NCBI GenBank assembly: GCA_902526005.1
Contig: CABZIW010000001.1
Coordinates: 3,013-67,012, forward strand
Direction: 5' to 3'
DNA: 64,000 nucleotides
DNA from: an uncultured Pelagibacteraceae bacterium
GTDB lineage: Bacteria > Pseudomonadota > Alphaproteobacteria > Pelagibacterales > AG-422-B15
Position 1 is the stretch's first letter; the number at the start of each line of letters is the position of its first letter. Under the pieces are notes generated by a model. The model saw only the letters and a program-made list of their open reading frames with translations, did no database searches and was not told the DNA's origin. The position numbers and the translations under genes were made by a program. Positions 48,761 to 64,000 of the stretch are shown one piece after another.

Positions 48761-49648
48761 TTATAAAAGACCGCGCTTTTGATATTGCTGCACAGATGTT
48801 TTACCTACTTTAAAACCTTTTTCCTGAAGTTCCCGAGCAATTGCTCTTTGAGACAATCCTTTAGCACGGAGTGCTTTAGCTGTAGGTAACCATTCTTTTG
48901 CTTTTTCCAAGGCTAGTTCTTGTGCTTTTTCTGTCCCAGTTTTTTCTTCATAAGAATATAATGTTTTCATAACTCTACCATCAGCATACTTTATATATCC
49001 TTTTTTGATAGCTTCATTAACGTTATTGGCGATTGTCAGATTTGAGTCGATAAATGTTTTATTATTTTCATACGTAATTCCTCTAAGCCTATCATTTAAG
49101 TTTTTCACTCTTTCATTTATTAAATTTATATCTTTTTTATCATTTGCATCTAAGCTTCCTTCTTCCTCAATAAAAATCTTACTTATTTCTAAAAATGATT
49201 TTTTATTACAATTTTCAATAAAAAATAAAATTTGATCATTTGTAAATGTTGTTCTGCTTCCTGTTGGTCTTTCAGTTGGATTAAAACTTTGATCTTTGTT
49301 TTTATAATCCTCTTTTAGGTAATCCTGTGATGCAGTATCGGATGGTTTTTTTCCGGCAAGTATGTCTTTAATTATGCTGTCTTCTCTTTCAAGAAACCTG
49401 AGCACATGTCTCACAGTTTGCTCACCAACTATTTTCATCTTTCTTGAAATATCAAGTGCTGAGAGTCCCTCATTTTCTCGAATTTGCCAAATTCTTATAA
49501 GTTGATTTTGGTCTAATTTAGTAGATCCGTATCCTCCTAAACTTAAATATTCTTTATATTTAATTTTAAGTTGTGAATCGCTATATCTAATTTTGTTAAA
49601 TTCATTTGCTCTGCTCCTTGTAGCACTTCCTGCTTTCAAATATTTCAT
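48761..49648 (-). CDS. Hypothetical protein with three putative HTH segments
   Basis: GLSALDISRKMKIVGEQTVRHVL; FTNDQILFFIENCNKKSFLEISKIF; KGLSQRAIARELQEKGFKVGKTSVQQY. Confidence 0.6.
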   Translation of the reverse strand: MKYLKAGSATRSRANEFNKIRYSDSQLKIKYKEYLSLGGYGSTKLDQNQLIRIWQIRENEGLSALDISRKMKIVGEQTVRHVLRFLEREDSIIKDILAGKKPSDTASQDYLKEDYKNKDQSFNPTERPTGSRTTFTNDQILFFIENCNKKSFLEISKIFIEEEGSLDANDKKDINLINERVKNLNDRLRGITYENNKTFIDSNLTIANNVNEAIKKGYIKYADGRVMKTLYSYEEKTGTEKAQELALEKAKEWLPTAKALRAKGLSQRAIARELQEKGFKVGKTSVQQYQKRGLL

Positions 49649-50703: not shown

Positions 50704-52392
50704 TTATATAATTCTATATTTTTCCCAATCATTTTTAAATAATTTTAATTTTTCTGGATGATCTATCATTATTTTAAGCAAAATTGTTAGACCGTCTGAA
50801 AAAGCTCTTTGACCGTCTGCAAGTCCAAAAGCATGCTGTAACTCATGCGTAAGCGTTGACAGGATTGATCCAAAGCTATGAGAAAAAAGTTTTTCATTGA
50901 GTAATACAGTTTTTTCATCAAATTGACTTTGTGAGTCTTTTAATTCGCCTAAAACTTTATCAGACTTTAAAACCTTAAATTGGATATTATACAGTGCTCC
51001 ATATTCGGACTCTACTTGCACAAGATCAACAGCTTCTAAACAATAAAAAACACCGGCAAAACCAGGTGCAACTTCGCGCAGACATTGTAAAAGGAAATTT
51101 ATAGCCTTTGTTTCTTTGGAATTGAGCAATCTAATTGCCTCTTTTTTGGCTTTTTCCTCTGCCTTTTTCTTTTTTTCCTGCAAAATCTCAACGCTTGATT
51201 TAATGCCCAATCTGCTGAAGTAACTTGGTAACTTTTTATACCCCTTCTTCTCAAAGTGTCTGTCTTGACTATATATCTTTGGTTCAAGTTCCCAGTACAA
51301 CCTTCCATAAATGCTGCTGTAACGAGGTGAGCTTTCGGAATAGTAACCTTTGATACGTCCAATAGGTGAAAATAACTTTTCAAGATAATCTTTTGACTCT
51401 TCCGATTTTAAATTCCAGACATTATTACATATACTGCTTAATAGTGGGTGCCCTTGTCCTTTTAACCACAATGGCTTCAATTCTTCCAAAATAAATTTTA
51501 TTGCAGGATTTAATGCACTATCTCTATAGTGCAGTCCAGACTGAGCGACAATATTAAAAAGCTGAGATCTTAAGTCTTGCGTAAACGAATTTCTATCGCG
51601 ATCACTTGCAACTTTGTTTTCAATCTTTTTATATTTTTTTTCAATTACAAGAATGAGAGGTAAGTCAATTTCACCTCTATTTAGTCCATTGTAAAAAATT
51701 ATTCCGTTTTCTTTATTAGATTTATAAAAAGATATATGATTATATGAATGTAGTAATTCACCTAAATGTGGATTTTCTGGCCAGAAAAAATGATCTTCTA
51801 GACCACACTTAAATGCATCGCGTATATTTTCTTTAAATGTGTTAATAACAAACTTTGAACCAGTTTCAGAATTAGAAATTTTAAAAAAATTATAAATTAA
51901 TGGTCTTAATCCAACCTCATTTTCTTCAGGTGAAACAGAGACAGCTACAGCTTCATTCCCTGATATAAATATTGGATATTCAATTCCTAATTTAATTAGA
52001 CTAACTACTGAGATCAGGCTGCCTTCCCCAAATTTTCCAAGTTGGGTTTCATCATTTGCTTTTGTTCCTCCTATATAAAACAGTAACTTCAAGTTGTAAT
52101 CAGAAGGGCCTTGTACAATAATTTGTCCAGATTTAATTGATGTTTTAATATCAGAAATACTAAACCCTTGTGAGATAGCACCATCCCTTGCATTTTGAAG
52201 AACTTCTCTACAAATAAAAGATGGGGAATAATCAACACCCCAATCCAATGAAACGCTGCTCTCAAATGAGTAATCATATTGAACTTTTTTTAAACCTGGG
52301 ACTTTTTTAAGCAATTTAGAAATTTCATTAATTTCATTTTTAGCAATTAGTGCTGTATCTTTTTTTATTGAATTTTTTATTTGTTTTCTCAT
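50704..52392 (-). CDS. GHKL-type ATPase fused to a C-terminal zinc-metallopeptidase motif
   Basis: REVLQNARDG (N-box), QLGKFGEG (G2 box), and HELQHAFGLAD (HExxHxxGxxD) near the C terminus. Confidence 0.75.
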   Translation of the reverse strand: MRKQIKNSIKKDTALIAKNEINEISKLLKKVPGLKKVQYDYSFESSVSLDWGVDYSPSFICREVLQNARDGAISQGFSISDIKTSIKSGQIIVQGPSDYNLKLLFYIGGTKANDETQLGKFGEGSLISVVSLIKLGIEYPIFISGNEAVAVSVSPEENEVGLRPLIYNFFKISNSETGSKFVINTFKENIRDAFKCGLEDHFFWPENPHLGELLHSYNHISFYKSNKENGIIFYNGLNRGEIDLPLILVIEKKYKKIENKVASDRDRNSFTQDLRSQLFNIVAQSGLHYRDSALNPAIKFILEELKPLWLKGQGHPLLSSICNNVWNLKSEESKDYLEKLFSPIGRIKGYYSESSPRYSSIYGRLYWELEPKIYSQDRHFEKKGYKKLPSYFSRLGIKSSVEILQEKKKKAEEKAKKEAIRLLNSKETKAINFLLQCLREVAPGFAGVFYCLEAVDLVQVESEYGALYNIQFKVLKSDKVLGELKDSQSQFDEKTVLLNEKLFSHSFGSILSTLTHELQHAFGLADGQRAFSDGLTILLKIMIDHPEKLKLFKNDWEKYRII

Positions 52393-52419
52393 TATTTTTT
52401 CCTTATTCGATTAAATTTA

Positions 52420-52617
52420 TTAATATGGCGAAATGGAGACCCAAAAGCACTCAGATTCATCGTCCGGCCCTTTAGCTAAGCCTTTGATATCAAATACTCT
52501 CTCATCCTCATAATGAGTAATCTTCAATTCATTCGCATAAACAGCTAATTCTGAATAATCTCTAAACTTATAATCCTCAAGAGGAGCGCAGAGTAATACT
52601 ATAATAGTTTCGATCAT
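52420..52617 (-). CDS. Small hypothetical protein (65 aa)
   Basis: Fills the operon gap, 10 nt after the previous stop; no motif recognised. Confidence 0.55.
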   Translation of the reverse strand: MIETIIVLLCAPLEDYKFRDYSELAVYANELKITHYEDERVFDIKGLAKGPDDESECFWVSISPY

Positions 52618-52627
52618 CTAAATTTTT

Positions 52628-52852
52628 CTAATTAATAAGGTTCTTATTTTCATGAAACCATTTCCAAACCTTATTTTTGGTTTTAAAATATTTGATAGCT
52701 CTATCTAGGCTTTCATTAAGAAAATCTCTAAAATCTTGTTTCTGACCTTCAAGAGCAAGCAACTCACTTAACTCATTAATTTTTTCAATTGTATCCTCAT
52801 TAAGAAGTAATACTTTTTTGATATTAGGATCATTTTCTTTTTTTAATTTCAT
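52628..52852 (-). CDS. Small protein, possible ribbon-helix-helix DNA-binding fold (74 aa)
   Basis: KKVLLLNEDTIEKINELSE...FRDFLNESLDRAI strand-helix-helix pattern; 4-nt overlap with upstream gene. Confidence 0.55.
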   Translation of the reverse strand: MKLKKENDPNIKKVLLLNEDTIEKINELSELLALEGQKQDFRDFLNESLDRAIKYFKTKNKVWKWFHENKNLIN

Positions 52853-54372
52853 CTCATTGCCTCTAACTCTTTTTCTTTATTTTCAATATATGTCCGCGCT
52901 GAAACCAAGAGTTGAAATTTTTCATTTGGAAGATCTGGGTTACTATTCTTATTATTATTTAGATCGTCATTATCAATTTCGTTGGCTTTGCAAATCTTTT
53001 CTAATTCATCTTTGGCAGTTTCAATTGTTAAATAGTTTCTGTATTCATAATTTTCACTTAGCAATCTGTTGGCTATTTGATGTTCTATATCTCTAATATC
53101 TGATTGGGACATGACAGATGGTTCATTATCATAAATTATTTTTTTTGCTATATGTACCATACGCATATCTGTGAAAGCTTTTATTTTTTTATACTTATCT
53201 TTGTACTCATCTAATTGGTGAAATTCACGCGCAAGTGCCTTATCTGAATTAGTAAAAAAACTTTCATAAATCATATCTTCGTAATACTCAGATTTTTTTT
53301 TAGCAAACATTTCATCGTTATCGACAGTGAATGCCGAAACAACCTTATTTTTGTATTGATTATTATTCTCTAAATTCTCATGCATTTTTTGTATTTCTTC
53401 TAAATTACCAAGACTGCCTATTTGTTCTTTGGATAGGTTTGCAACCTTAGGATCGATCAAAATTGGATTTTTGTTTAAATAAATTTTTCTAAATATTCTA
53501 TTTTTTCGATCATCTTTTCTTTTAGATATTTCTGCAGGGGATAATAAAAAATCATCCTCTGTAAAATTTTTCAGATCAACAAATATAGCAGAACCGTCAT
53601 TACCCATCCCGCAGTAGGAATATGTATACAAATATTCATTTCCTCTCATGAAAAAAGTCGACAAAAAATAATTTTTTGAATTACTCAGTAAATCAGAAAC
53701 TCTCTCTTTATGTGCAGTCTGTTGCATTTGTTTCCATATTTCTGGATCTTGTTTTGAGTATTTTTTGACAAAATTCATCATTAGTTTTGTATCAACAATT
53801 GCTGTATGCAATTCACCTTCAGCTTTAATAGAATTTTCATCACAAATAAGGCCAAGTTGAAAACTAGGTTTGCCAGTATTTGGATGTAAAGGAACTTTTA
53901 AATCACTTTTACCAAAACTTTGTAAGGCATGCGCAAAGCTTAGTGCATCGATTTCGTAATTAAAGTTACCGGACGGAGATTTGGTATTCATGAAGTATAA
54001 ATCATCGAGCTGAAGGTTCATATAGGCATTGGCAACTCTAAATATGCCTCTGTCAAAGTTGTTGTTCCATGCTATCCAGTAAATATTGTATTTTTGCCGC
54101 CACTCACTAAATTTTTTATTAATCACTCTACTTAACTCATAGCTTGACATATTTTGTCGTAAATTTTCTTCTGTTAAATTATTTGTGAAACTTGCTCCTG
54201 GGCTTAAAAAATTTGTCTTATTTAAACGACATTTTTCATCGAGGACGTCTTCAATTTCAAAGTTTTCTGGATCAACGAGGATTGCAGTTATTTCCAACAG
54301 CTGTGTAAAGCCTGTATTTGGAATATTGTGTGAACTTTCCGTATCAAAAAAACAATATCTAATATTTGTCAT
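52849..54372 (-). CDS. sbcB: Exodeoxyribonuclease I-like DEDDh 3'-5' exonuclease
   Basis: ExoI FFDTES, ExoII WNNNFDR, GKPSFQLGLIC..N, ExoIII HTAIVD; long ExoI-like C-terminal extension. Confidence 0.75.
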   Translation of the reverse strand: MTNIRYCFFDTESSHNIPNTGFTQLLEITAILVDPENFEIEDVLDEKCRLNKTNFLSPGASFTNNLTEENLRQNMSSYELSRVINKKFSEWRQKYNIYWIAWNNNFDRGIFRVANAYMNLQLDDLYFMNTKSPSGNFNYEIDALSFAHALQSFGKSDLKVPLHPNTGKPSFQLGLICDENSIKAEGELHTAIVDTKLMMNFVKKYSKQDPEIWKQMQQTAHKERVSDLLSNSKNYFLSTFFMRGNEYLYTYSYCGMGNDGSAIFVDLKNFTEDDFLLSPAEISKRKDDRKNRIFRKIYLNKNPILIDPKVANLSKEQIGSLGNLEEIQKMHENLENNNQYKNKVVSAFTVDNDEMFAKKKSEYYEDMIYESFFTNSDKALAREFHQLDEYKDKYKKIKAFTDMRMVHIAKKIIYDNEPSVMSQSDIRDIEHQIANRLLSENYEYRNYLTIETAKDELEKICKANEIDNDDLNNNKNSNPDLPNEKFQLLVSARTYIENKEKELEAMR

Positions 54373-54375
54373 AAT

Positions 54376-54762
54376 TTAATATAAAAATTTCTTTGTTTTT
54401 TTATTTAATTCATTTTTTTTAGTAAAGGGCCTTAAGTATCTTTGCTTAAGGAAACGATCTAATCTTTCATTTCTTATTTTTGATAATTCGTTTGAGTAAT
54501 TTTTCCAATGAAATGTAAAGGCATTTTCATATAATATTTCATGAGCAGTTTTTAATTTGTAAGACAATAATTCAACTCGTTCTCTGGTTTCTTTATAGAT
54601 TTTTAATTTTTTATTAAAAATTTTTTTTTGTCTCCAATACATAAATAATTTATTTCTTATGTCACTATCTAGAGCCAGGCAAGAAAGGAAAGAAAAAAAT
54701 GTAAGAACAAACCTAGCTCTAGAAGCAATCGACGCCGAAACTTTTTTTACAATATGTATCAT
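54376..54762 (-). CDS. Basic hypothetical protein (128 aa)
   Basis: 4-nt overlap with XRE gene and 3-nt gap to the exonuclease; no motif recognised. Confidence 0.6.
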   Translation of the reverse strand: MIHIVKKVSASIASRARFVLTFFSFLSCLALDSDIRNKLFMYWRQKKIFNKKLKIYKETRERVELLSYKLKTAHEILYENAFTFHWKNYSNELSKIRNERLDRFLKQRYLRPFTKKNELNKKTKKFLY

Positions 54763-55406
54763 ATATCCTCATCTCTTAACCATGTATTTTGATATTCAAT
54801 TTCATCACTAATTTTAACAACATTATTGGATGAGATTATTTCAGTATTTTTAATGAAACGATTTCTACTTTGCAAAATGACAATAACCTGGTTGATATGA
54901 TTTCCCTTTTTTAAAAAGTAGTTGATGTTTTCATAATTTAACTGTCTAACAATTTCCTTAAGATTTACTTCGTACTCTGTTTTTTTATTCTCAAGTATTT
55001 GATATTCGTTATGGTCAAAATCATAAATAGATTTTTTTTCCCACATTTTTTCAATCTCTATTAAAGCCTGACTTAGTTTAAAAAGATTTTCTTTAAAACT
55101 AACCGTAACCACAGTTTTTAGATATTCACTAGCTTCATGCCAAGTATCATCATATTCGATGTAAGGAATTTTTGATTTCAGGACAGCACAAAGACTTCTT
55201 ATGTCTTGGTAGGCCTGATTTGTATCTCGTAACGACTCCATTCTTGACTCGAGAATAATTCGTTTATCATTTGGTATTGGATGCTCCCCTCTTTCATAAG
55301 CCTCATATGTTCTAAGTGGCAAATCTAATTTTAGAGACATGTCGCGTTGCGTTATTTTTAATTCCCTTGTTCTTAAAATCTTTAACTTTTCAGAAAAATC
55401 ATTCAT
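54759..55406 (-). CDS. XRE-family HTH transcriptional regulator (start reassigned to MNDFSEKLK)
   Basis: KLKILRTRELKITQRDMSLKLDLPLRTYEAYERGE; the track's TTG at 55415 overlaps the -10 box. Confidence 0.85.
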   Translation of the reverse strand: MNDFSEKLKILRTRELKITQRDMSLKLDLPLRTYEAYERGEHPIPNDKRIILESRMESLRDTNQAYQDIRSLCAVLKSKIPYIEYDDTWHEASEYLKTVVTVSFKENLFKLSQALIEIEKMWEKKSIYDFDHNEYQILENKKTEYEVNLKEIVRQLNYENINYFLKKGNHINQVIVILQSRNRFIKNTEIISSNNVVKISDEIEYQNTWLRDEDI

Positions 55407-55413
55407 GCTAGGC

Positions 55414-55442
55414 AATTTATCGAAATTCTAGCGACATGTCAA
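55414..55442 (-). promoter_or_regulatory. Sigma70 promoter of the XRE-led operon, with palindromic operator candidate
   Basis: TTGACA (55442-55437), 17 bp, TAAATT (55419-55414); GACATGTC palindrome overlaps the -35 box. Confidence 0.65.
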
Positions 55443-55447
55443 CATAT

Positions 55448-55469
55448 AATCCGCAATAAATCCGCAATA
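55448..55469. repeat. Tandem 11-bp direct repeat AATCCGCAATA x2
   Basis: 55448-55458 and 55459-55469 are identical. Confidence 0.8.
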
Positions 55470-55506
55470 ATATTTTATCAAATATATCAATGCTTTACAT
55501 GGATAA

Positions 55507-55674
55507 TTAGCTTTGGATAATTGATTTATATTTTAAAATCTGAGGTTCTTTTTTAGATTCTAAAATATTTATTAATCGTTCTTCTTCATTAATAATCACC
55601 CGAAAAAATTTTTTTTGACCCACATGATCTTCTACCTGCTCAATCCGTATGGATATGAGATTATTATTTTTCAA
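55507..55674 (-). CDS. Small hypothetical protein (55 aa), absent from ORF track
   Basis: AAGGAGGT SD 5 nt before TTG; MKNNNLISIRIEQVEDHVGQKKFFRVIINEEERLINILESKKEPQILKYKSIIQS*. Confidence 0.6.
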   Translation of the reverse strand: MKNNNLISIRIEQVEDHVGQKKFFRVIINEEERLINILESKKEPQILKYKSIIQS

Positions 55675-55736
55675 TTTTTACCTCCTTTTTTTAAATTCAA
55701 CATTAAATAAAACGAGTCTCTTAAGCTTTTCAATCA

Positions 55737-56405
55737 TCATATTTCACTGAGATCAAAAAGATTGTGCCTGCATTTTCTTTGAGCTTCATTAAAATATTTC
55801 CTAAATTCTTTTATATTCCAATTGTTATGCATTATATCAAAGTATATAGAAGGATCCTTGCCGTATTGTGTTTTTTGTAACTCAATTTCAAAGCTATCCT
55901 TGTCTCCTAAAAATGCGATGACTTCTTCAGCAGTAAGTAAGTTTTCAAACATGAACTGTGTAAAATAATATCCGTCTTGAATTCGAGTTCCTATAATACC
56001 AACTTTAGATAAGTACTCATCACCTGGAACATATTTTACTAAAACTTCAAATATATCATCACTCTGTGGAATTGACTCCATAATACTTGTAATTTGAAAT
56101 GTGAGACCCACCTCATCGCAATTATCACTATCCAGCATGAAGGTAAGGTAATCTTCTTTTTGAATTTGTCCTTTTGTAGCAATAAATATTATTGGTGCAG
56201 TTTCTGATTTATGAATATACCAAATACTGTTGACAGATTCATTATTTGAGGAATTCTCAATGCTATAATCTTCGGCCAATAATTGTTTTTGAAACACTAT
56301 GACTAAATTTAATAATATTAAAAAAATAAGTAATTTTTTAATTTTTAAAAAATTTATCGTATTTTTTTTATACTTACTTTGTATAAATTTTTTTAGTTGA
56401 ATCAT
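55737..56405 (-). CDS. Exported or membrane-anchored hypothetical protein (222 aa)
   Basis: AAGGAG SD; basic N-region then hydrophobic stretch LLIFLILLNLVIVF. Confidence 0.7.
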   Translation of the reverse strand: MIQLKKFIQSKYKKNTINFLKIKKLLIFLILLNLVIVFQKQLLAEDYSIENSSNNESVNSIWYIHKSETAPIIFIATKGQIQKEDYLTFMLDSDNCDEVGLTFQITSIMESIPQSDDIFEVLVKYVPGDEYLSKVGIIGTRIQDGYYFTQFMFENLLTAEEVIAFLGDKDSFEIELQKTQYGKDPSIYFDIMHNNWNIKEFRKYFNEAQRKCRHNLFDLSEI

Positions 56406-56480
56406 GCATTCTCCTTGTTTTTATTTAGAATACAATGATCATATGTTTTAAATTTGATATTCTTTTGTCAGAATTATGTT

Positions 56481-57425
56481 CTAGAACAAATCATCAAGCG
56501 TGATTGTGCTTGGTCGAGCGTGACTCATATCTACTGAGTATTCTATATTGTGAATACCTTCTTTTGCTTCAGTAATTCTTGGAACGTCTACATTTTCATA
56601 TATTAGAAGGCTTTTTTGAGCTGTTTGATAATCAAACTTCGTTTTAGTTATGTCAGTTTTTTCAGTTATCATATCTACTATTGTATCCAACTTAAAAATT
56701 AGATAGTTATCATCAACCTTTTCTCTAATTTTATTAATTAACTCCTCTAAGGAACATCCATCACTTACTTTTTTTGCAATGATTGAAACAATAAATATTT
56801 TATCGGACTTACTGTGAAGTTGTTGATACTTAAATCTATGGATCCTACTATTATTTTTTGATGATTTGATTTCAACAGCCTTATCTAATGAGTAAAAGTC
56901 CCAAATATCTCTTGCTTTTTCTGATTGATAAGAAGTAAGCGCTTCCAACGTATTTGAAGTATTATCTATAACGAACAGTTCACTCCATAATCCTTGTAAT
57001 CCCTTAGTGTTATTTTTCTTTTCAATAAAGATACTTTTTAGTGTAAATAGATATTTAGAAAGTGTCTTATTTGAAGTTATACTTTCTAAATCATCAATAA
57101 TTTGATTGACTATTTTTAAAAATGCACTTTGCTCATTAACGTTGTCACTAAAAAATTCTAAGACAGTATACTGATCTTTGGTTATTTGATTATTTTTTTC
57201 TATTGTTTCGTAGGTATTAGTATCATTGACTCGCCATAACTCTAGTAAATTTATTCTTTCACTAATTACATTATTATCATTAACCTTGAATAGGATTACC
57301 GGCTTGTTTGTCAACGATTTTGCAATATAATGTTCTTTTTTTATTTGAATTTTTTCTACTATATACTTACCGTCTTTCTCACTTTTTGATGGTTCAATAT
57401 TGTAAAACAAATCAATTAAATTCAT
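56481..57425 (-). CDS. PD-(D/E)XK motif protein, DUF4420 family
   Basis: GLQGLWSELF, WDFYSLDKAVEIKSS; directly after the Z1 gene with a 4-nt overlap. Confidence 0.85.
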   Translation of the reverse strand: MNLIDLFYNIEPSKSEKDGKYIVEKIQIKKEHYIAKSLTNKPVILFKVNDNNVISERINLLELWRVNDTNTYETIEKNNQITKDQYTVLEFFSDNVNEQSAFLKIVNQIIDDLESITSNKTLSKYLFTLKSIFIEKKNNTKGLQGLWSELFVIDNTSNTLEALTSYQSEKARDIWDFYSLDKAVEIKSSKNNSRIHRFKYQQLHSKSDKIFIVSIIAKKVSDGCSLEELINKIREKVDDNYLIFKLDTIVDMITEKTDITKTKFDYQTAQKSLLIYENVDVPRITEAKEGIHNIEYSVDMSHARPSTITLDDLF

Positions 57426-60004
57426 CTTTCGATTTGCCAGCTATCTGAAATTTTTTCTGATGGTAAGAATCTAAAAACTGGATAATTTTCATGTAATAAT
57501 TTTTTATTCTTTTCCCCATAATCATCTACGGTTTCTAAATTTACTCTTTTTAGTTTCATGCACTGCAATACTGGATGAACTTTTAATATATTTGATCTTG
57601 GTAAATTTTTAAGTCTATCATCTTTTAGATATTCATAATGAAATTTACTATAACTTGGTCGGCTATCTGTCACACCACTTCCTCCTCCTCCAGAGTCAAA
57701 ACTGATACTCCCAAATGCTCCCTTAATTGTTCTTTCTTTAGTAGTTTCAGGATCTATCATAACAATAGGGCAATTAATATCTTCATTTTCTTCAAGATAT
57801 TCCTCAATTGTTTTAAAAAGTGGAAATACTTCAAGATCATCAAAAAGTTCTTTTATGTATTCTTCAAATACAAAACTCAACTTTAAATCAACTTTGATTT
57901 TGGATAAATTATTATGAATCCACTTTTCATTTCTTCCTGGCTCTAGATCTCTAAACAAATAACTACTTTGATTAAATTTATCTAAGATATCATTATATAT
58001 TTCATTATTTTTTTGCTCTTGAACTATATCTTTTTGCCACTGATTATTCTGTCTTGCAGCTGAACCTTTTGGTATCATGATTAGGCTTCTTCTTGATTTA
58101 GAGCTTGATGTTAATCTTGAACGCGAACGAAAAGCCCTTGGCCAGTCTCTAATTAATTTTCCATCATTAAGATGATTTGAAATATCTTTTCTAAACTGCT
58201 TTTCAAGTTTTGCATTCTTTTCAAAATCATCTATGAGGGACTCATGTAAATATATTTTAGTAAAAGGCAGTGTATCTTTTCTATATCCAAAAAATCTTGC
58301 TCTTTGTTGTTGCGTATCTACTTGGTTTGCTGCTTTTCTAGGCATATATGAGACACTCAAACCCTCAATTGTATAACCTCTATCTAAGCCGTCTCCACCA
58401 ATTAGAATTCTTGACATCGTTCCCTCTTTTTCCCATGGAATATCGGGTATTCTTCCCTGAGATGCATTAAATAAAATTATATTTCTTTTGATTTCGTTTA
58501 AAGCCCTAGTTATATACGTTCGAAATTCTTTATTGAATTCAGGGATATTTTCAATATCTTTTTGTTCAACCAACTCATCATACGTAACCTTAAAGTCATC
58601 TATATCATTATTTAAATGGGGAACTGGTCTGTTGGTGTTTTCAGAATTGAATGAGTGGTGCCAATTATTTATTTGGTTTGTAATATCTCTTCTATAATTT
58701 TCATGCTGATCTCTTTCTCTATGAGTATGTATCATCATTGAAAGTTTGTAATTTTCTAAGTGCTTTTTTTGATGATAGCAAATAGCATTAGTAAGCACAA
58801 AGTATCTTAATGCATGATTTAGTGAGTAATCTTCTAATTCATCTTTATTATCAATTTCATCATTTTCAATTGTATCGTTTTGTTCTTCGGTATCATTAAT
58901 AATTTTTTGATTTATTAATTTATCTATGTTTGTTATGTAGCGAGCTTTATTTTTATCATTAAGAAAAAAAAATCCTGAACCAGTGTAATCTTGTCCTGGT
59001 TTGAGTATCTCACCAAACTCAGGATTTAAATTTTCAATTGCTTGTTGCAATAAATTTGCATAAGGAGTAGCTGTATATCCAATATAAGAATGAAATGGAA
59101 TTGCTTCTCGCAAACTTTCAATGCATCTGTTTGTTGTAGATCTAACCTCCTCCAGTAAAATGATTTCGCCATGCTCGGGTGACCACTTGACTAATGGAGA
59201 TTTTGCGTTCCATAAATATAGTTGATCTATATCAATTTCATTGTTTAAAGCAATTTCATCGAGATTGTCTCCCTCTTGAAATTGATAATAATGGATCCTA
59301 AAAGATCGTGGTGCTCTTCCCTGCTCTATATTTCGTTTAATATTAGATTTTTGATTTCGTATCGCGTCTGAAGAATTAAGTGAGTAATGATCTGACTCAT
59401 CATCTATGATTAATACTGGACATTCATTAAGATTATGACTATTAGCTAATTCTCTAAACAAATCAGTGATCATCTCAATTCTATTGTGTAGTTTGAATGA
59501 AGTTATAACTATGGTCTTTCTTTCTTCTTCGTCATAACTTTTTGTCCATGTCTCAAGCGCTGATTGACAATTATTAATTGTAGTTTCATCAATGGACTCC
59601 TTGTCATCATTTCTTATTTTTTCCCAACCCCATGATAATTCTAAATCATCAAACCTAAATGCTGTTTGTCGAGCTAAACTTCCAACATTTCCTGACAAAA
59701 TTACTATAATTTTGAAATTATTATCATGTGCTAAATGAGTTAGCGCTGTCATGGAGGTAGTTTTTCCCGATTGAACATCTCCTATGACTAATCCAGTTGA
59801 CCTATTATTTGATTGTTCTTCATAATTTTTAAAAGGGTCGATGCATTGCGATAAAATGCTAGATGTAGATTTTATGGTATTATTTGTGTCCTCTTCATAT
59901 TTCTTAGGATCTTCAGAAAATTTTTTTTTCAATTTATTGAAGTAAACTCCATCAGTAAAAGGTTTCCATAAATTTCTGTTAAGAGGTCTTATAATTGTGC
60001 TCAT
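57422..60004 (-). CDS. Z1-domain protein with SF2-helicase-like ATPase and a LysM-like insertion
   Basis: GDVQSGKT, LIIDDESD, GYTATP, MMIHT, GG..LDRGYTIEGL.VSY, DTQQQRARFFGYR; LysM-like segment at aa 238-285. Confidence 0.9.
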   Translation of the reverse strand: MSTIIRPLNRNLWKPFTDGVYFNKLKKKFSEDPKKYEEDTNNTIKSTSSILSQCIDPFKNYEEQSNNRSTGLVIGDVQSGKTTSMTALTHLAHDNNFKIIVILSGNVGSLARQTAFRFDDLELSWGWEKIRNDDKESIDETTINNCQSALETWTKSYDEEERKTIVITSFKLHNRIEMITDLFRELANSHNLNECPVLIIDDESDHYSLNSSDAIRNQKSNIKRNIEQGRAPRSFRIHYYQFQEGDNLDEIALNNEIDIDQLYLWNAKSPLVKWSPEHGEIILLEEVRSTTNRCIESLREAIPFHSYIGYTATPYANLLQQAIENLNPEFGEILKPGQDYTGSGFFFLNDKNKARYITNIDKLINQKIINDTEEQNDTIENDEIDNKDELEDYSLNHALRYFVLTNAICYHQKKHLENYKLSMMIHTHRERDQHENYRRDITNQINNWHHSFNSENTNRPVPHLNNDIDDFKVTYDELVEQKDIENIPEFNKEFRTYITRALNEIKRNIILFNASQGRIPDIPWEKEGTMSRILIGGDGLDRGYTIEGLSVSYMPRKAANQVDTQQQRARFFGYRKDTLPFTKIYLHESLIDDFEKNAKLEKQFRKDISNHLNDGKLIRDWPRAFRSRSRLTSSSKSRRSLIMIPKGSAARQNNQWQKDIVQEQKNNEIYNDILDKFNQSSYLFRDLEPGRNEKWIHNNLSKIKVDLKLSFVFEEYIKELFDDLEVFPLFKTIEEYLEENEDINCPIVMIDPETTKERTIKGAFGSISFDSGGGGSGVTDSRPSYSKFHYEYLKDDRLKNLPRSNILKVHPVLQCMKLKRVNLETVDDYGEKNKKLLHENYPVFRFLPSEKISDSWQIER

Positions 60005-60098
60005 GATTTCTAGTTAAATATTAAATGGTATTATTCAAGTTTTTTGTTGTTCATTATACAACGTAGAACTAACTATATGAAAAGTATAATTTTTATTT

Positions 60099-61724
60099 TT
60101 ATTTAAAGTTAAGTTCTGGAGGTAATATTCTGAGAATATCATTAAGTTTTTCTCTCACACGAGCAGGTTTTTCACTTCTTGAACCGGTGCGCATTGTTTG
60201 TACTTCTGCAATAGATAGCCATGTACATAATTGGCTTAAAAGTTCTTGCCCTGTATCTCCTGAGGGCAATATATATGCCCTAGTAAATTTGTGATTCAAA
60301 CTAATATCAATAATGATATCATATGATTTTAAATATCTATCATTTGGATATGATACAGAGTACCAGAAGTCATTAACTGGCTCTGTATTTATAAAGTTAA
60401 CAGTAATCTTAAATTGTACTTTATCTTTTCCAGCGCCTTGAACAAATGATCTTGAGAATTTTTTTTCTATATTTTCATGGATTTTTTTCTCTACTAACTT
60501 TGGATAACTCGATTTTAGCATTTCTTTACTTGCTGCTTCAACCGCAGCCTTAAGAGTGTTTTTTGATTTTTCTAGAGGCGCATCATCTGTAGAATCATCA
60601 TCCTCAAGTTCAATATGAGGTTTTAAATTTCTTGTACTTTCTTGCCAACTTTTACATTGTTTAAAAAGATTAAATTCATCTTTGCTTATTTCTTCTTTTA
60701 TTAAACTTTCAAATTTTTCTTTTGTTCCATCCCACTGTAAGTCATCTTTTGTATGTGTTGCTTCTATATTAGAGATAAATAATTCTCCCACCATTGTTTG
60801 CTCTACTCTACCTCCTTCTTCACCCGTAAATTTTGAGCGATATCTGAACTCTTTTTCAGGTGATCCACCCAGAATTAGCCTATCTCTTCTAAATATTGCT
60901 ATACCGTCATTCTTTTTTCTCCCAGTCAAACCAGTTTCTTCATCTAGTCGACCAATCCAACCATAAACTGACATTTCATTTTTTTTATTGAACTCAAGAT
61001 CAATTTTTTTCTTCCATACAACACTTTTAGGTTTTTTTAAAATTTCACCCTCAAGATACTTATCCCATTGATCAACTGGTGGTGCCATAGATAATTTTGG
61101 ATTTTCATATTTTAAAATTTCTCCATTATATTTAAGCTGTAATTCATTTCTTCTTATAAAAACTCTATACATAGATGCTAAAAACTTTTTAAGTGTATTA
61201 ATGTCAGCTGGTGTTATATTCCTACATTTTGTTAAATTAACTATTGTGAATCCCCTATTTTTTGGAGATGAAGATAATTTGTCTATATTGATATCATCGA
61301 TACTTTTTTCAATTTTATTTGCATCAAAGACCATTTTTCTTACTGCGGTCTCACCTAAAGCAGTTGTGGTTACATCCCAGTAATCTGAGAGCCATATACC
61401 TGCTGTTTTCATTCCCATTCCAAACTGTGAAAGACCTGTTCCCTTCTTGGGTTTTTGACCTGCTGTTAAAGCCCTTTCAAGATCTGATGAGTGAATACCT
61501 GCAGCATTATCTCTTATATTAATATTTTTCCCTTGTATATTAATCTCAATTTTAAGCTTATAACTACTATAACTTGAATTTAATTTTTTTTTATTATCTA
61601 TATAACTTTGAACTGCATTATCAACAAACTCTGCTATTGCATAAGGGACCTTGTAAGGTAAGTTTTTAAAAGTCAGTAAAACATTTGAATAAGGCCTAAT
61701 GTTTATTTTTTCTAATTCTCGCAT
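60099..61724 (-). CDS. MORC/MutL-like GHKL ATPase
   Basis: AIAEFVDNAVQS, IRDNAAGI, SQFGMGMKTA, GFTIVNL. Confidence 0.9.
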   Translation of the reverse strand: MRELEKINIRPYSNVLLTFKNLPYKVPYAIAEFVDNAVQSYIDNKKKLNSSYSSYKLKIEINIQGKNINIRDNAAGIHSSDLERALTAGQKPKKGTGLSQFGMGMKTAGIWLSDYWDVTTTALGETAVRKMVFDANKIEKSIDDINIDKLSSSPKNRGFTIVNLTKCRNITPADINTLKKFLASMYRVFIRRNELQLKYNGEILKYENPKLSMAPPVDQWDKYLEGEILKKPKSVVWKKKIDLEFNKKNEMSVYGWIGRLDEETGLTGRKKNDGIAIFRRDRLILGGSPEKEFRYRSKFTGEEGGRVEQTMVGELFISNIEATHTKDDLQWDGTKEKFESLIKEEISKDEFNLFKQCKSWQESTRNLKPHIELEDDDSTDDAPLEKSKNTLKAAVEAASKEMLKSSYPKLVEKKIHENIEKKFSRSFVQGAGKDKVQFKITVNFINTEPVNDFWYSVSYPNDRYLKSYDIIIDISLNHKFTRAYILPSGDTGQELLSQLCTWLSIAEVQTMRTGSRSEKPARVREKLNDILRILPPELNFK

Positions 61725-61729
61725 AGATT

Positions 61730-63085
61730 TTATATTAAATTTTTTGCAATTAAATGCACAACTTTAACATTTACGGCATTTCCAACTGCTGGTAAAAAGT
61801 AAGACTTATATTTTTCTTTAAAACGCAGATCAGACAAGGCAAATCCTTGAAGTCTCAAAGCTTCTTCGAATGTTATAAATCTATATTTTTTCTCTAACTT
61901 TGAACTTCCGTTGCCTATAATCGGCGTTTGTGTAGTAGTCATTGAAATTAATGTTGGCGCGACGTTTGATCTTTTTACTCTTATACCAGATGGTCTAAAA
62001 GATATTAGCTTATTTTTAAGATTTAAGTTTTCTCCATGAGCATTCCATTCAAATTTTTGGTAACTCGGCATCATCGCGTCAACTTTGTAATCTTTTATCC
62101 AATTCTTAAAATCTCTTCTGTATTTCTTTAAATATTCTCTATTTCTATTTATGAAATTTATTTTCCAGCTGGGAAATTTTTTCTTTGTTTTGGCATATGC
62201 TGGAAGGTTAATAAGTTCTCCGTTTTTCATTTTAATTCTTTTGCCAAAACTGCCTTTATAGCCAATAAAATTTTTTAAATTTTTATTAAATGTATTTGTT
62301 CCATTTATTGGATAATTTGCATCAAATTCCATCAACCATAATGGCGACATAAATTCGTTACTAATAATTTTTCTTCCATATTTTTTTTCTAAACGATTTA
62401 AAAGATCCTGAAACATTTCTATCTTTTCAGCTTTTGCTTTAAAAACATATTCAACATTTTTAGGATTCTTGCTTAAAAACTTTCCTATATTTTTATGATT
62501 ATAATCTTTTTTTAAGTTTATCTTTCTGAGTGGAAATTCAAAAGAGTCATGCTTTTTATTTTTTTTCTTATTAATCCCTACAATATATAACCGCTGTCTT
62601 GTTTGAGGATAGCAAAAATCAATAGGGGCAAGTTGTTTTTCTTTTATGGTATATCCAATTTGCTCAAGGTTCATTTTCATTTTTCTATATGTTTTTTTTG
62701 AATTATGAAAAAATAAATTTGGGACATTCTCAAGAAAAATATACTCAGGTCTCACATATTTGATAATTGAAAATAAGTATTGAAACATATCTCCAGCTAT
62801 TTTGTGATCAAATCCATTTTGAGAACCGGCTTTGGAGAATGGCTGGCATGGAAAACCTGCGCAAATCAAATCTGCATTTTTTTTCATAAAATCTAAATGT
62901 ATTTTAGGGATTGTTCTAATGTCATTCCATATGTATTCTTTTTTGAGCTTAAAATTTTTCTTATAGAGATCTCTCAGTCGTTCATCAATTTCACAAGCAT
63001 AAATACAATCATGCCCCTCTTTTCTCAATGCTATATGAAATCCTCCAAGACCAGCAAATAGATCTATGAATTTAAGTTTTTTCAT
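61730..63085 (-). CDS. DNA (cytosine-5)-methyltransferase
   Basis: DLFAGLGG, AGFPCQPFS, ENV, Q.RQR, RLQGF, GNAV. Confidence 0.96.
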   Translation of the reverse strand: MKKLKFIDLFAGLGGFHIALRKEGHDCIYACEIDERLRDLYKKNFKLKKEYIWNDIRTIPKIHLDFMKKNADLICAGFPCQPFSKAGSQNGFDHKIAGDMFQYLFSIIKYVRPEYIFLENVPNLFFHNSKKTYRKMKMNLEQIGYTIKEKQLAPIDFCYPQTRQRLYIVGINKKKNKKHDSFEFPLRKINLKKDYNHKNIGKFLSKNPKNVEYVFKAKAEKIEMFQDLLNRLEKKYGRKIISNEFMSPLWLMEFDANYPINGTNTFNKNLKNFIGYKGSFGKRIKMKNGELINLPAYAKTKKKFPSWKINFINRNREYLKKYRRDFKNWIKDYKVDAMMPSYQKFEWNAHGENLNLKNKLISFRPSGIRVKRSNVAPTLISMTTTQTPIIGNGSSKLEKKYRFITFEEALRLQGFALSDLRFKEKYKSYFLPAVGNAVNVKVVHLIAKNLI

Positions 63086-63145
63086 TTTTGTAATTTTCTC
63101 AGATTCCTAACGAGAATCAAGTTTAGTTGCTACTAATATTTAATT

Positions 63146-63427
63146 TCAATCGTTAATTTTTTTTTCTAAGCATCTAAAGTCTTTTTCCAATCTGTTTCCA
63201 TCAAAATTGATGTGGCAAATATTCAACTGATGCCTTTGGCACCAAATTTGAAGACCTCTATCGGTGAAGCCTACATCAATTCTTGAATAATCCTGTAGAG
63301 ATTTTGCATCTGTCTGACCGCTGATAAATTCATCAGAACATTTAACACAAACAATTGGCTCTTTGATTTGATTTAACAAATAACTAAGTTTTTCTATATC
63401 TTTCTCTAGATAATTGTCTTCACTCAT
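63146..63427 (-). CDS. Hypothetical protein with CxxC...CxxH (93 aa)
   Basis: CVKC and WCQRH motifs; 4-nt overlap with the nuclease gene. Confidence 0.75.
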   Translation of the reverse strand: MSEDNYLEKDIEKLSYLLNQIKEPIVCVKCSDEFISGQTDAKSLQDYSRIDVGFTDRGLQIWCQRHQLNICHINFDGNRLEKDFRCLEKKIND

Positions 63428-63825
63428 TCACACCAGTCTTTCTTATTATTTTTATCATACACAACTCCTAAACCGTTTAAGACCATTATTTTTGAAACGT
63501 TTTCACCATCTACAATGATATAAGCTAAGATTCTATCAAAAAAATCTCTATTGTATTCAGTTTCAAATTCAATTTTTTTCCCGTCAGAAATATATTTATT
63601 AATATAGTTACGTGCTTCAATGCCAAGCGTATATTCTTTTTCACATTTAGGATGTGAAATTTCAGGTGTATCAAGATCGAGTAGTCTAACTTTATCATTA
63701 TTTTCTTGATATGTTACATAGCATGTATCGCCATCATAACAAAACAAGTCATTTTGTTTTCTTATTTGTATGTCTGCAAATGAATTAGAGATTAATAAAA
63801 TTAGAACAGAGAAAATTCTTATCAT
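63424..63825 (-). CDS. Thermonuclease (SNase-like) with signal peptide
   Basis: YDGDT, VRLLDLDTPE, RDFFDRILAY. Confidence 0.9.
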   Translation of the reverse strand: MIRIFSVLILLISNSFADIQIRKQNDLFCYDGDTCYVTYQENNDKVRLLDLDTPEISHPKCEKEYTLGIEARNYINKYISDGKKIEFETEYNRDFFDRILAYIIVDGENVSKIMVLNGLGVVYDKNNKKDWCE

Positions 63826-63834
63826 TAATAAATA

Positions 63835-64000
63835 TTAATTGATAATTTCGTGAGGGTATACTCCTAGTAAATTATTTTTTTCGATCCAGACTTTAATTTC
63901 TTTCTCATTATCTGTAATTGTAATCCTACACCAACTTGAGTCACACTTATTAATTTTTGCATGAACAAAAGGGTCTATTTTAGCAAGTATCTTATTTTTG
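63835..64000 (-). CDS. C-terminal end of a bacterial SH3-domain protein (partial)
   Basis: Hand translation KNKILAKIDPFVHAKINKCDSSWCRITITDNEKEIKVWIEKNNLLGVYPHEIIN*; C..WC...W..K..L.GVYP pattern. Confidence 0.7.
   Translation of the reverse strand, partial: KNKILAKIDPFVHAKINKCDSSWCRITITDNEKEIKVWIEKNNLLGVYPHEIIN

What the first reader, a model, noticed from the sequence alone, without database searches (positions are those of the whole stretch)
59150..59293. LysM-like glycan-binding domain inserted into the Z1 helicase-like ATPase
Seen: between Walker B (IIDDESD) and motif III (GYTATP), where Z1 proteins normally have a short variable loop, residues 238-285 read HYYQFQEGDNLDEIALNNEIDIDQLYLWN...EHGEIILLE. 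This fits the LysM pattern Y.V..GD.L..IA......L...N......G..I.L. Known: LysM binds GlcNAc-containing glycans such as peptidoglycan and chitin and is normally extracytoplasmic; this protein has no signal peptide. Inference: a defence enzyme that senses sugar-modified phage DNA or cell-wall fragments released during infection, or a LysM fold repurposed for nucleic-acid/protein binding. I know no described restriction component with this architecture.
Basis: partly seen in the sequence, partly recalled or inferred. Interest (0 to 1): 0.85.

Follow-up and report, generated by a model that had tools for sequence, protein, structure and literature searches.

The report
LysM domain inside a restriction motor
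A real LysM domain, normally a cell-wall sugar binder found outside the cell, is spliced into the DNA-coupling loop of a cytoplasmic restriction-enzyme motor, and every sequenced genome found to carry this variant belongs to the marine SAR11 bacteria or a related uncultured marine alphaproteobacterium; what the domain does there is not known.

Summary
Residues 238-285 (window 59150-59293, minus strand) of an 860-aa DEAD-Z1 ATPase form a genuine LysM domain.

- **Window protein alone:** it is below the Pfam threshold (12-17 bits against a cut-off of 20.9).
- **Relatives:** 11 of 14 clade members hit PF01476. A profile of the insert finds solved LysM structures (E 2e-14).
- **Fold:** AlphaFold2 gives a beta-alpha-alpha-beta fold, and its best structural matches are all LysM.
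- **Insertion:** Walker B to motif III spans 102-116 aa here, against 43-69 aa in 106 other Z1 proteins.
- **Evolution:** the 50 LysM-bearing proteins are monophyletic. Every one with a genome assignment is from Pelagibacteraceae or a related uncultured marine alphaproteobacterium. The insert is under purifying selection.
- **Operon:** the gene sits in a known type of operon: Dcm, MORC-like GHKL ATPase, Z1 motor, DUF4420 nuclease.
- **Position:** the insert lies in the post-Walker-B loop. In the CglI H-subunit paper this loop plays a role in coupling ATP hydrolysis to DNA cleavage.
- **Charge:** the insert is always strongly acidic (net -5 to -15).

I favour a regulatory or docking role on that loop. 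Glycan sensing is not excluded. I found no paper describing this architecture, so I class it as a new variant of a known system.

The parts
59150..59293 (-). LysM domain (residues 238-285) inserted in the N-core RecA domain of the Z1 motor. Fold is beta1 239-241, alpha1 248-254, alpha2 259-265, beta2 281-283. Invariant Asn266.
   Evidence: Pfam on relatives; profile against PDB sequences; AlphaFold2; Foldseek; N266 in 50 of 50 members; net charge -8.
59294..59374 (-). Residues 211-237. This is the rest of the post-Walker-B loop (motif IIa / switch region). In this protein it is a basic segment predicted helical (H211-227), followed by a flexible linker into the LysM domain.
   Evidence: Secondary structure, and pLDDT below 50 at residues 233-235. 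It is the least conserved segment, with pairwise identity 0.20. Loop role in H.CglI is taken from PMC5861437.
59387..59410 (-). Walker B / motif II, IIDDESDH (residues 199-206).
   Evidence: Invariant I200 D201 D202 E203 D205 H206 in alignment A1.
59063..59080 (-). Motif III, GYTATP (residues 309-314).
   Evidence: Invariant G309 Y310 A312 T313 P314; read directly in the DNA.
59759..59782 (-). Walker A variant GDVQSGKT (residues 75-82), the Gln-containing variant typical of DEAD-Z1 motors.
   Evidence: Invariant G75 Q78 S79 G80 K81 T82; variant described for H.CglI.
58154..58825 (-). Z1 domain (residues 394-617), the second RecA-like core. It carries the H/H pair H426/H434 and motif VI QRARFFG (starting at residue 567).
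   Evidence: PF10593, E 6e-37; invariant H426, H434, Q567, R568, R570.
57422..60004 (-). Whole gene: 860-aa DEAD-Z1 helicase-like translocase subunit with the LysM insert.
   Evidence: The whole-protein model matches SF2 motors (XPD, Hef, EcoR124I HsdR, Snf2, RecQ).
60099..61724 (-). GHKL (MORC/paraMORC-like) ATPase, 541 aa, immediately upstream in the same operon.
   Evidence: PF13589 HATPase_c_3, E 2.4e-14. It is adjacent to the LysM-Z1 gene wherever the upstream flank is held.
61730..63085 (-). DNA cytosine-5 methyltransferase (Dcm), 451 aa.
   Evidence: PF00145, E 3.5e-59; TIGR00675, E 4e-58.
56481..57425 (-). DUF4420 predicted PD-(D/E)XK nuclease, 314 aa. Its start overlaps the Z1 stop by 4 bases.
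   Evidence: PF14390, E 4.9e-23. Present downstream of the LysM-Z1 gene in 11 of 21 genome loci and in P0010 contigs.

Best explanation
**What it is.** The gene encodes the helicase-like DEAD-Z1 translocase subunit of a four-gene, Dcm-linked restriction system. The four genes are a Dcm methylase, a MORC-like GHKL ATPase, the Z1 motor and a DUF4420 PD-(D/E)XK nuclease. In one lineage of this motor a classical LysM domain was inserted once into the divergent second half of the loop that follows Walker B (motif IIa, the 'switch' loop). It has been kept ever since.

**How it likely works (inferred).** The motor itself looks catalytically intact. The LysM is a small, rigidly attached, strongly acidic knob on the loop that, in the studied relative H.CglI, plays a role in coupling ATP hydrolysis to DNA cleavage and is predicted to lie beside the translocated DNA. 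I think it acts as a regulatory or adaptor module. It would dock against a basic surface, either on the same protein, on the GHKL or nuclease partner, or in the DNA channel as a DNA-mimicking gate. In that way it would control when ATP-driven translocation is coupled to cleavage. It would not bind DNA directly.

**Shown:** domain identity, the insertion site, the operon, monophyly, purifying selection and the acidity.
**Inferred:** the regulatory or docking role.
For: **Identity of the domain:**

**Insertion:** span of 102-116 aa against 43-69 aa. The profile matches in one stretch in all 21 Pelagibacteraceae or uncultured-alphaproteobacterial loci. It matches in two stretches that skip the LysM part in every other locus that matched, 58 in all.

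**Single origin and retention:** the 50 LysM-bearing proteins are monophyletic on 648 core columns that exclude the insert, with no LysM-less member nested among them.

**Selection:**
- dN/dS in the insert is 0.11-0.24, against 0.08-0.22 elsewhere in the gene.
- Pairwise identity is 0.28 in the insert, against 0.20 in the adjacent loop and 0.25 in the C-terminal domain.
- N266 is present in 50 of 50 members, L262 in 44 and G279 in 39.

**Operon:** conserved with the LysM insert, and also without it in Phycisphaerales and Dehalococcoidia. So the LysM is an accessory, not part of the core machine.

**Loop function:** in H.CglI the loop after Walker B is implicated in coupling ATPase activity to cleavage. 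Its divergent half is modelled next to the DNA (PMC5861437).

**Acidity:** net charge -5 to -15 (pI 4.1-4.5) in 45 of 45 members, while the whole proteins range from -25 to +17. The equivalent loop in other Z1 proteins averages -0.3 and is often basic.

**Attachment:** the C-terminal junction into the RecA helix is confidently modelled (residues 281-290, pLDDT 83). The N-terminal linker is flexible.

**Precedents for intracellular, non-glycan LysM:** in Kbp the LysM is supposed to interact with the BON domain when K+ is present, and mutating all of its acidic residues lowered K+ sensitivity (PMC5681659). The mitoribosomal uS10m also carries a LysM.
Against: - No binding partner or ligand was identified, and no coordinates were available to inspect what the LysM touches in the model.
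- The domain is still close enough to peptidoglycan- and chitin-binding LysM domains to hit them at E 1e-8 to 1e-14.
- It keeps the G-D/E-T-L motif of the beta1-alpha1 loop (T247 in 35 of 50 members), which lines the sugar groove in canonical LysM domains (PMC4083421). A glycan ligand therefore remains plausible.
- In H.CglI, loop mutants showed little change in DNA binding by EMSA, so the DNA proximity of the loop is itself only modelled.
- dS is near saturation in most of the pairs used for dN/dS.
Confidence: 0.4

Rival explanations
1. Cytoplasmic glycan sensor or anchor. The LysM still binds GlcNAc-containing molecules that are available inside the cell. Candidates are recycled anhydro-muropeptides released when a phage breaches the wall, UDP-GlcNAc or UDP-MurNAc precursors, and inner-leaflet lipid II. 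Binding would switch the motor allosterically or localise it at the envelope.
For: - The insert is a classical LysM by sequence, and its best PDB hits are peptidoglycan and chitin binders.
- The G-D/E-T-L motif and the buried Asn are conserved.
- LysM recognition relies largely on backbone amides and pocket shape (PMC4083421), so side-chain divergence does not rule it out.
- The insert sits on a loop that could transmit binding to the ATPase-cleavage coupling step.
Against: - The alpha2-beta2 loop, which forms the N-acetyl pocket in AtlA LysM (G36-I39), is 2-3 residues longer in most members and poorly conserved.
- In the window protein Pfam aligns only positions 1-27 of 43.
- LysM primarily recognises GlcNAc-X-GlcNAc. 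That is longer than the mono- or disaccharide units I would expect in the cytoplasm (my own knowledge, not tested here).
- The intracellular LysM precedents do not act through glycans.
Confidence: 0.22
2. Reader of sugar-modified phage DNA. The LysM sits beside the translocated duplex, recognises glycosylated bases, and so redirects or licenses cleavage.
For: - The loop is modelled next to the DNA path in H.CglI.
- LysM is a sugar-binding fold.
- The system is a DNA-targeting defence system.
Against: - Net charge of -5 to -15 in every member is unfavourable next to a DNA backbone.
- The operon carries a Dcm methylase. This points to classical protection by methylation and attack on unmodified DNA.
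- LysM-less relatives use the same four genes.
- No evidence on DNA glycosylation in the phages of these hosts was sought or found.
Confidence: 0.07
3. Tolerated passenger. The LysM was inserted by chance into a permissive surface loop and persists only as a stable, inert decoration.
For: - The host loop is the most length-variable part of the N-core (43-69 aa in other Z1 proteins).
- The core system works without the insert in other phyla.
- The insert is less conserved than the RecA cores (0.28 against 0.43-0.51).
Against: - It has never been lost in 50 members that have diverged to about 27-34% identity.
- dN/dS is about 0.1-0.2, similar to the rest of the gene.
- The LysM hallmark residues and a strong acidic character are maintained in every member.
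- In my view streamlined genomes such as SAR11 would be unlikely to keep useless sequence (my inference).
Confidence: 0.12

Closest known systems
H-subunit of the restriction enzyme CglI (DEAD-Z1 helicase-like motor; Toliusis et al. 2018, PMC5861437)
   Same: - Z1 domain as the second RecA-like core.
- Gln-containing Walker A (QSGKT).
- Short-register motif VI (QxxR).
- H/H pair eight residues apart (H426/H434 here, H282/H290 in CglI).
- A family-specific loop directly after Walker B.

   Different: - The loop is 10 residues in H.CglI. Here it is about 80 residues and contains a complete LysM domain.
- The partners differ. CglI works with an R-subunit. Here the partners are a GHKL ATPase and a DUF4420 nuclease.
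- No PDB sequence match was found for the whole protein.
MORC/paraMORC + distinct SFII helicase + novel RE-fold nuclease + DCM operons (Iyer, Abhiman, Aravind 2008, PMC2292703)
   Same: - The same four-component gene neighbourhood.
- The helicase carries the DThhQXuRhFG motif (DTQQQRARFFG here).
- A Candidatus Pelagibacter abbreviation appears in that paper's figure legend.

   Different: That description contains no mention of LysM (0 occurrences). The LysM-bearing motor is a sub-clade found here only in Pelagibacteraceae and related SAGs/MAGs.
MZA anti-phage system (MzaB GHKL ATPase, MzaC Z1 protein, MzaD PD-(D/E)XK; NCBIfam NF041932-4, PADLOC)
   Same: The same three protein types are recognised at low scores: MzaC E 8.8e-36, MzaB E 6.8e-7, MzaD E 1.5e-3, and PADLOC MzaC E 1.7e-27.
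   Different: - Scores are far below the equivalog cut-offs (123 against 1500, 28 against 850, 18 against 420).
- MzaC matches only residues 292-681, not the LysM region.
- A Dcm methylase is part of this operon.
Classical LysM (PF01476 / CBM50) of peptidoglycan hydrolases and chitin receptors
   Same: - Beta-alpha-alpha-beta fold.
- Y-x-V-K-x-G-D-T-L ... I-A ... L ... N sequence signature.
- Buried Asn at the end of alpha2.

   Different: - Cytoplasmic.
- A single copy inserted inside an enzyme domain, rather than a terminal repeat.
- Longer and divergent alpha2-beta2 loop.
- Uniformly very acidic.
Kbp/YgaU (BON-LysM K+-binding protein) and the LysM of kinetoplastid mitoribosomal uS10m
   Same: Intracellular LysM domains that work through intramolecular or protein/RNP contacts. 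The acidic residues of the Kbp LysM matter for its switch. uS10m is hit by the insert profile and by fold.
   Different: No specific sequence affinity to either. A Kbp-derived sensor appears only at Foldseek rank 42. The contexts are unrelated.

Membership tests
LysM domain (Pfam PF01476, clan CL0187) | Sequence match to the family model at or above the curated threshold | tested here: inconclusive
   The window protein scores 12.3 bits (whole) and 17.5 bits (isolated), below the gathering score of 20.9. However, 11 of 14 orthologous inserts hit the model at E up to 1, best E 1.4e-7. Five relatives carry precomputed PF01476. The insert profile hits solved LysM domains at E 2e-14.
LysM domain (Pfam PF01476, clan CL0187) | [quoted passage not shown] | tested here: met
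   AlphaFold2 elements E239-241, H248-254, H259-265, E281-283. The isolated domain has pLDDT 86. The Foldseek top-35 PDB matches are all LysM, TM 0.61-0.78.
LysM domain (Pfam PF01476, clan CL0187) | Conserved buried Asn at the C-terminal end of helix 2, and the G-D-T-L / I-A signature in the first 16 residues | tested here: met
   N266 in 50 of 50 members. G245 in 25, D/E246 in 41, T247 in 35, I251 in 36 and L262 in 44 of 50. The structural role of the Asn is taken from PMC4083421.
LysM domain (Pfam PF01476, clan CL0187) | Binding of GlcNAc-containing glycans | not testable with these tools
   Needs ITC or NMR with chito-oligomers or muropeptides. The alpha2-beta2 loop that forms the pocket is divergent.
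DEAD-Z1 helicase-like motor (H.CglI type) | Z1 domain (PF10593) following a P-loop N-core | tested here: met
   PF10593, E 6.2e-37, residues 394-617. SF2 fold matches.
DEAD-Z1 helicase-like motor (H.CglI type) | Gln-containing Walker A, QxxR motif VI, H/H motif | tested here: met
   QSGKT at residue 78 and QRARFFG at residue 567. H426 and H434 are invariant and 8 residues apart, like H282/H290 of CglI. No direct alignment to H.CglI was made.
DEAD-Z1 helicase-like motor (H.CglI type) | ATP-dependent dsDNA translocation coupled to cleavage | not testable with these tools
   A biochemical property. Only motif integrity was checked.
MORC/paraMORC-SFII-NRE-DCM restriction-modification operon (Iyer 2008) | GHKL ATPase, helicase with the DThhQXuRhFG motif, RE-fold nuclease and cytosine methylase in one neighbourhood | tested here: met
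   The neighbourhood is conserved in the loci held. The motif reads DTQQQRARFFG.
MZA anti-phage system (MzaB/C/D equivalogs) | Scores at or above the NCBIfam equivalog cut-offs for MzaB, MzaC and MzaD | tested here: not met
   28 against 850, 123 against 1500 and 18 against 420 bits. The system is related to MZA but is not a member.

The most novel reading that the evidence does not exclude
The LysM is a working cytoplasmic glycan receptor. It would bind cell-wall fragments or precursors (anhydro-muropeptides, lipid II, UDP-sugars), or sugar-decorated phage DNA. It would use the motif IIa coupling loop to switch a restriction motor on or off. That would be a direct link between sensing envelope breach or a glycan signal and DNA restriction, seen so far in SAR11-type marine bacteria.
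Probability: 0.2. Interest if true: 0.85.

Novelty: new variant of a known kind. Interest (0 to 1): 0.55.

Why it matters
The operon type has been known from comparative genomics since 2008, and DEAD-Z1 motors since 2014-2018. How these multi-ATPase restriction systems are regulated remains unclear.

Here the loop implicated in coupling ATP hydrolysis to cleavage has acquired a complete, independently folding domain from an unrelated functional world, cell-wall glycan binding. The domain has been kept under selection across a whole clade. Every member with a genome assignment lies in Pelagibacteraceae (SAR11, very abundant marine bacteria) or a related uncultured alphaproteobacterium.

This gives a natural handle on the coupling loop, through with/without comparisons against LysM-less relatives that have the same operon. 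It adds a bacterial case of an intracellular LysM. If the domain proves to bind a ligand, it would show a new input into restriction.

It also shows that a sub-threshold Pfam hit in one protein can be secured by clade-level profiling.

Tried and rejected
- **Whole protein against PDB sequences:** no hit at E up to 1. The CglI entry covers only the C-terminal domain, according to the paper.
- **Window protein on public contigs:** an exact look-up found it not on record.
- **Organism of the window:** not established.
  - LepA has 98-99% identical relatives, but none carries an organism name.
  - The closest named record is a single-cell assembly, GCA_902571535.1, with the same pheT-lepA-ggt order.
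  - Rfam finds only two tRNAs.
  - Local BLAST of window ORFs against the Pelagibacteraceae loci shows no informative shared housekeeping genes.
- **Literature search for MzaB/MzaC:** returned only journal-DOI noise.
- **Viral contigs:** four distant Z1 genes and no member of the LysM clade, so there is no sign that phages carry it.
- **Rejected: the insert is a chance match to a loose pattern.** Refuted.
- **Rejected: the insert is a Kbp-type LysM.** No Kbp sequence hit. The only Kbp-derived entry is a weak fold match at rank 42.
- **Rejected: the protein is secreted.**
- **Not possible:** the position of the LysM relative to the ATP site or the DNA path could not be inspected, because model coordinates are not exposed.
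Full report
**1. The observation**

The finding lies inside a minus-strand ORF, 57422..60004, encoding 860 aa. Residue 238 begins at 59293 and residue 285 ends at 59150, so the coordinates are exact. The peptide is HYYQFQEGDNLDEIALNNEIDIDQLYLWNAKSPLVKWSPEHGEIILLE.

Pfam identifies a Z1 domain (PF10593, E 6e-37, residues 394-617) and gives weak P-loop, ResIII and SNF2 hits in the N-terminal half. Walker A (QSGKT from residue 78), Walker B (DDESD from 201), motif III (TATP from 311) and motif VI (QRARFFG from 567) are all present. They are invariant among relatives.

**2. Is it LysM?**

The window protein alone is below threshold. PF01476 scores 12.3 bits (E 0.17) on the whole protein and 17.5 bits on the isolated 48 aa, against a gathering score of 20.9. 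Only model positions 1-27 of 43 align. Four further lines of evidence settle the question.

- **Relatives.** The database search found 13 full-length relatives at 27-52% identity. Five carry a precomputed PF01476 hit, and JGI names one cluster 'LysM repeat protein'. Scanning all 14 gave LysM in 11, best E 1.4e-7.
- **Profile against solved structures.** A 14-sequence profile of the insert alone hit LytE (2e-14), the Thermus P60 LysM pair (3e-10), Ecp6 (1e-8), YaaH, SafA, MltD and YkuD. It also hit the LysM of kinetoplastid mitoribosomal uS10m. In the 1.84-billion-protein library, the same region hit multi-LysM repeat proteins in 5-14 stretches each.
- **Predicted structure in context.** AlphaFold2 on the whole protein (mean pLDDT 72) gives strand 239-241, helix 248-254, helix 259-265 and strand 281-283, with block pLDDT of 76-88.
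- **Predicted structure of the isolated domain.** The model has pLDDT 86. Its best 35 PDB matches are all LysM domains, with TM 0.61-0.78 normalised to the query.

The domain is therefore a true LysM. The window copy is one of the more divergent members, especially in the alpha2-beta2 loop.

**3. Is it an insertion?**

- In a 120-sequence alignment, Walker B to motif III spans 102-116 aa in the 14 clade members and 43-69 aa in the other 106 Z1 proteins.
- The variable loop averages about 14 aa in those others.
- A profile covering Walker B, LysM and motif III matched 21 genome loci in a single stretch. It matched the other 58 loci that it hit in two stretches that skip the LysM part.
- In the representative library about 19 full-length clusters and about 5 fragment clusters have the one-stretch architecture. 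The variant is real but rare.

**4. Distribution and evolution**

- All 21 LysM-bearing genome loci are from Pelagibacteraceae or 'uncultured Alphaproteobacteria' single-cell or metagenome genomes. They include the complete genome of Candidatus Pelagibacter sp. Uisw_106. The other members come from marine metagenomes, including Tara.
- On a neighbour-joining tree built from 648 core columns that exclude the loop and LysM, the 50 LysM-bearing proteins are monophyletic, with no LysM-less sequence nested. This indicates one acquisition and no observed loss.
- Within the clade, pairwise identity is 0.28 in the LysM. It is 0.20 in the preceding loop, 0.25 in the C-terminal domain, 0.43-0.51 in the N-core and 0.34 overall.
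- N266 is invariant (50 of 50). L262 (44), G279 (39), I251 (36) and T247 (35) are strongly conserved.
- Nei-Gojobori dN/dS for the insert is 0.11-0.24, against 0.08-0.22 for the rest of the gene. dS is close to saturation except in the L015/L022 pair, where the values are 0.11 and 0.08. The insert is under purifying selection.
- No LysM-clade member was found in viral contigs.

**5. Genomic context**

The window operon, all on the minus strand, reads as follows:
- Dcm methylase, 61730-63085
- GHKL ATPase of the HATPase_c_3 type, 60099-61724
- Z1 motor, 57422-60004
- DUF4420 PD-(D/E)XK protein, 56481-57425

GHKL-Z1(LysM) with Dcm, and usually DUF4420, recurs in the related loci. The same operon occurs without the LysM in a Phycisphaerales MAG and a Dehalococcoidia MAG.

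This is the third MORC-associated operon type of Iyer et al. [quoted passage not shown] That paper never mentions LysM.

NCBIfam and PADLOC see only distant similarity to MzaB, MzaC and MzaD, far below the cut-offs.

**6. Where the LysM sits in the motor**

Toliusis et al. 2018 (PMC5861437) showed the following for the CglI H-subunit:
- DEAD and Z1 together form an SF2-like motor with a Gln-containing Walker A, a QxxR motif VI and an H/H motif.
- Walker B is followed by a family-specific loop (residues 163-172).
- The conserved first half of that loop is followed by a divergent second half, modelled next to the translocated DNA. It is equivalent to the 'switch region' (motif IIa) of SsoRad54.
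- The loop plays a role in coupling ATP hydrolysis to DNA cleavage.

The window protein shares all these hallmarks, including two invariant histidines eight residues apart (H426 and H434, against H282 and H290 in CglI). Its LysM is inserted in the divergent second half of exactly that loop, after the conserved SLN. The whole-protein model matches SF2 translocases such as XPD, Hef, EcoR124I HsdR, Snf2 and RecQ.

**7. Clues to function**

- The protein has no signal peptide or membrane segment, so the LysM is cytoplasmic.
- The insert is strongly acidic in every member examined: net charge -5 to -15, mean -8.6, pI 4.1-4.5. The whole proteins vary from -25 to +17. The equivalent loop of other Z1 proteins is near neutral on average and often basic. 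Direct binding to the DNA backbone is therefore unlikely.
- The canonical sugar groove is formed by the beta1-alpha1 loop and the alpha2-beta2 loop, largely through backbone contacts (PMC4083421). The first element (G-D/E-T-L) is largely kept. The second is 2-3 residues longer in most members and poorly conserved. Glycan binding can be neither affirmed nor excluded.
- The intracellular LysM precedents met here act without glycans. In Kbp the LysM is supposed to interact with the BON domain when K+ is present, and mutating all of its acidic residues lowered K+ sensitivity (PMC5681659). The mitoribosomal uS10m LysM is part of a ribonucleoprotein.

**8. Conclusion on mechanism**

I commit to a regulatory or adaptor role. 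The LysM would be an acidic, rigidly attached knob on the coupling loop. It would dock on a basic surface (intramolecular, on the GHKL or nuclease partner, or in the DNA channel as a mimic) and so gate the coupling of translocation to cleavage.

| Reading | Confidence |
|---|---|
| Regulatory or adaptor module (favoured) | about 0.4 |
| Cytoplasmic glycan sensor or anchor | about 0.22 |
| Tolerated passenger | about 0.12 |
| Reader of glycosylated DNA | about 0.07 |
| Other | remainder |

The identity of the domain, its insertion site, the operon, the clade and the selection are shown. The mechanism is inferred.

**9. Novelty**

No paper in the searchable library combines 'Z1 domain' and LysM. 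Searches for LysM in defence or restriction contexts gave nothing relevant. Automated pipelines have already flagged the domain, through Pfam precomputed hits and the JGI name 'LysM repeat protein'.

This is a new variant (a new domain architecture) of a known kind of restriction system, not a new kind of system.

The organism of the window could not be named. Its LepA is 98-99% identical to uncultured marine sequences, including a single-cell assembly with the same gene order. GC is about 0.29-0.38, and lowest (0.293-0.295) across 52-64 kb, where the operon lies. This fits the low-GC defence islands described for Pelagibacter (bioRxiv 10.64898/2026.04.03.716430).

Noticed in passing
window 52849-54372 (-): A 507-aa protein with no Pfam hit at E 1e-3 matches the PADLOC model RTasSbcB, an SbcB-like exonuclease associated with defence reverse transcriptases (E 1.7e-40). 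Homologues lie a few kb from the LysM-Z1 operon in two Pelagibacteraceae loci (L016 and L021, 12743-14200).
   Followed up: partly
window 54376-55415 (-): Two overlapping small genes lie between the exonuclease and the operon. One is a 218-aa protein with an N-terminal HTH_3 domain (E 4e-4, below the Pfam cut-off). The other is a 128-aa protein with no family hit. They could be a regulator or a toxin-antitoxin-like pair.
   Followed up: no
window 55737-56405 (-): A 222-aa protein with a hydrophobic N-terminal segment and no family hit sits directly downstream of the DUF4420 gene. Weak homologues occur near the system in L007 (E 1.9e-7) and L008 (E 3.4e-5).
   Followed up: partly
window 63146-63825 (-): Upstream of Dcm lies a 133-aa staphylococcal-nuclease homologue (PF00565, E 1.2e-11; PADLOC candidate C3a212 SNc+LTD, E 1.9e-13) with a signal-peptide-like N-terminus. 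Next to it is a Cys-rich 93-aa ORF with no family hit. No Vsr gene was recognised.
   Followed up: no
window 58829-58897 (-), residues 370-392 of the Z1 protein: An acidic low-complexity stretch (NDTEEQNDTIENDEIDNKDELED) is largely absent from the other 13 clade members and partly present in P0002. It is modelled with pLDDT below 50 (residues 375-387). It is a second, unstructured acidic insertion specific to this protein.
   Followed up: no
window 52001-64000: GC falls to 0.293-0.295 across the operon and its neighbours, against 0.31-0.38 in the housekeeping part of the window (gltB, pheT, lepA, thrS, rpsA, aroA). This is consistent with a horizontally acquired defence island. RmuC lies at 49645-50700.
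   Followed up: partly
L001 570-2246 and 3660-5102; L003 5914-7593: In one branch of the LysM clade the DUF4420 gene is missing. In L001 and L002 an MTaX1-like gene sits between Dcm and the GHKL gene. A NERD-plus-UvrD-like helicase gene flanks the system in L001-L003. This suggests exchangeable effector modules.
   Followed up: no
L008-L012, L014, L015, L017, L018, L024 (about 1-6 kb downstream of Z1): Many Pelagibacteraceae loci carry two Dcm-like genes (E 1e-10 to 1e-16 to the window Dcm), about 70 bp to 1.5 kb apart, instead of one close homologue. The window-type Dcm (E about 1e-100) occurs in other loci.
   Followed up: no
PDB hits (7aor_e, 6hiv_CJ, 9hny_CJ, 7pub_CJ): The insert profile and the fold both match the LysM domain embedded in the 817-aa kinetoplastid mitoribosomal protein uS10m. 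This is an intracellular LysM in a ribonucleoprotein.
   Followed up: no
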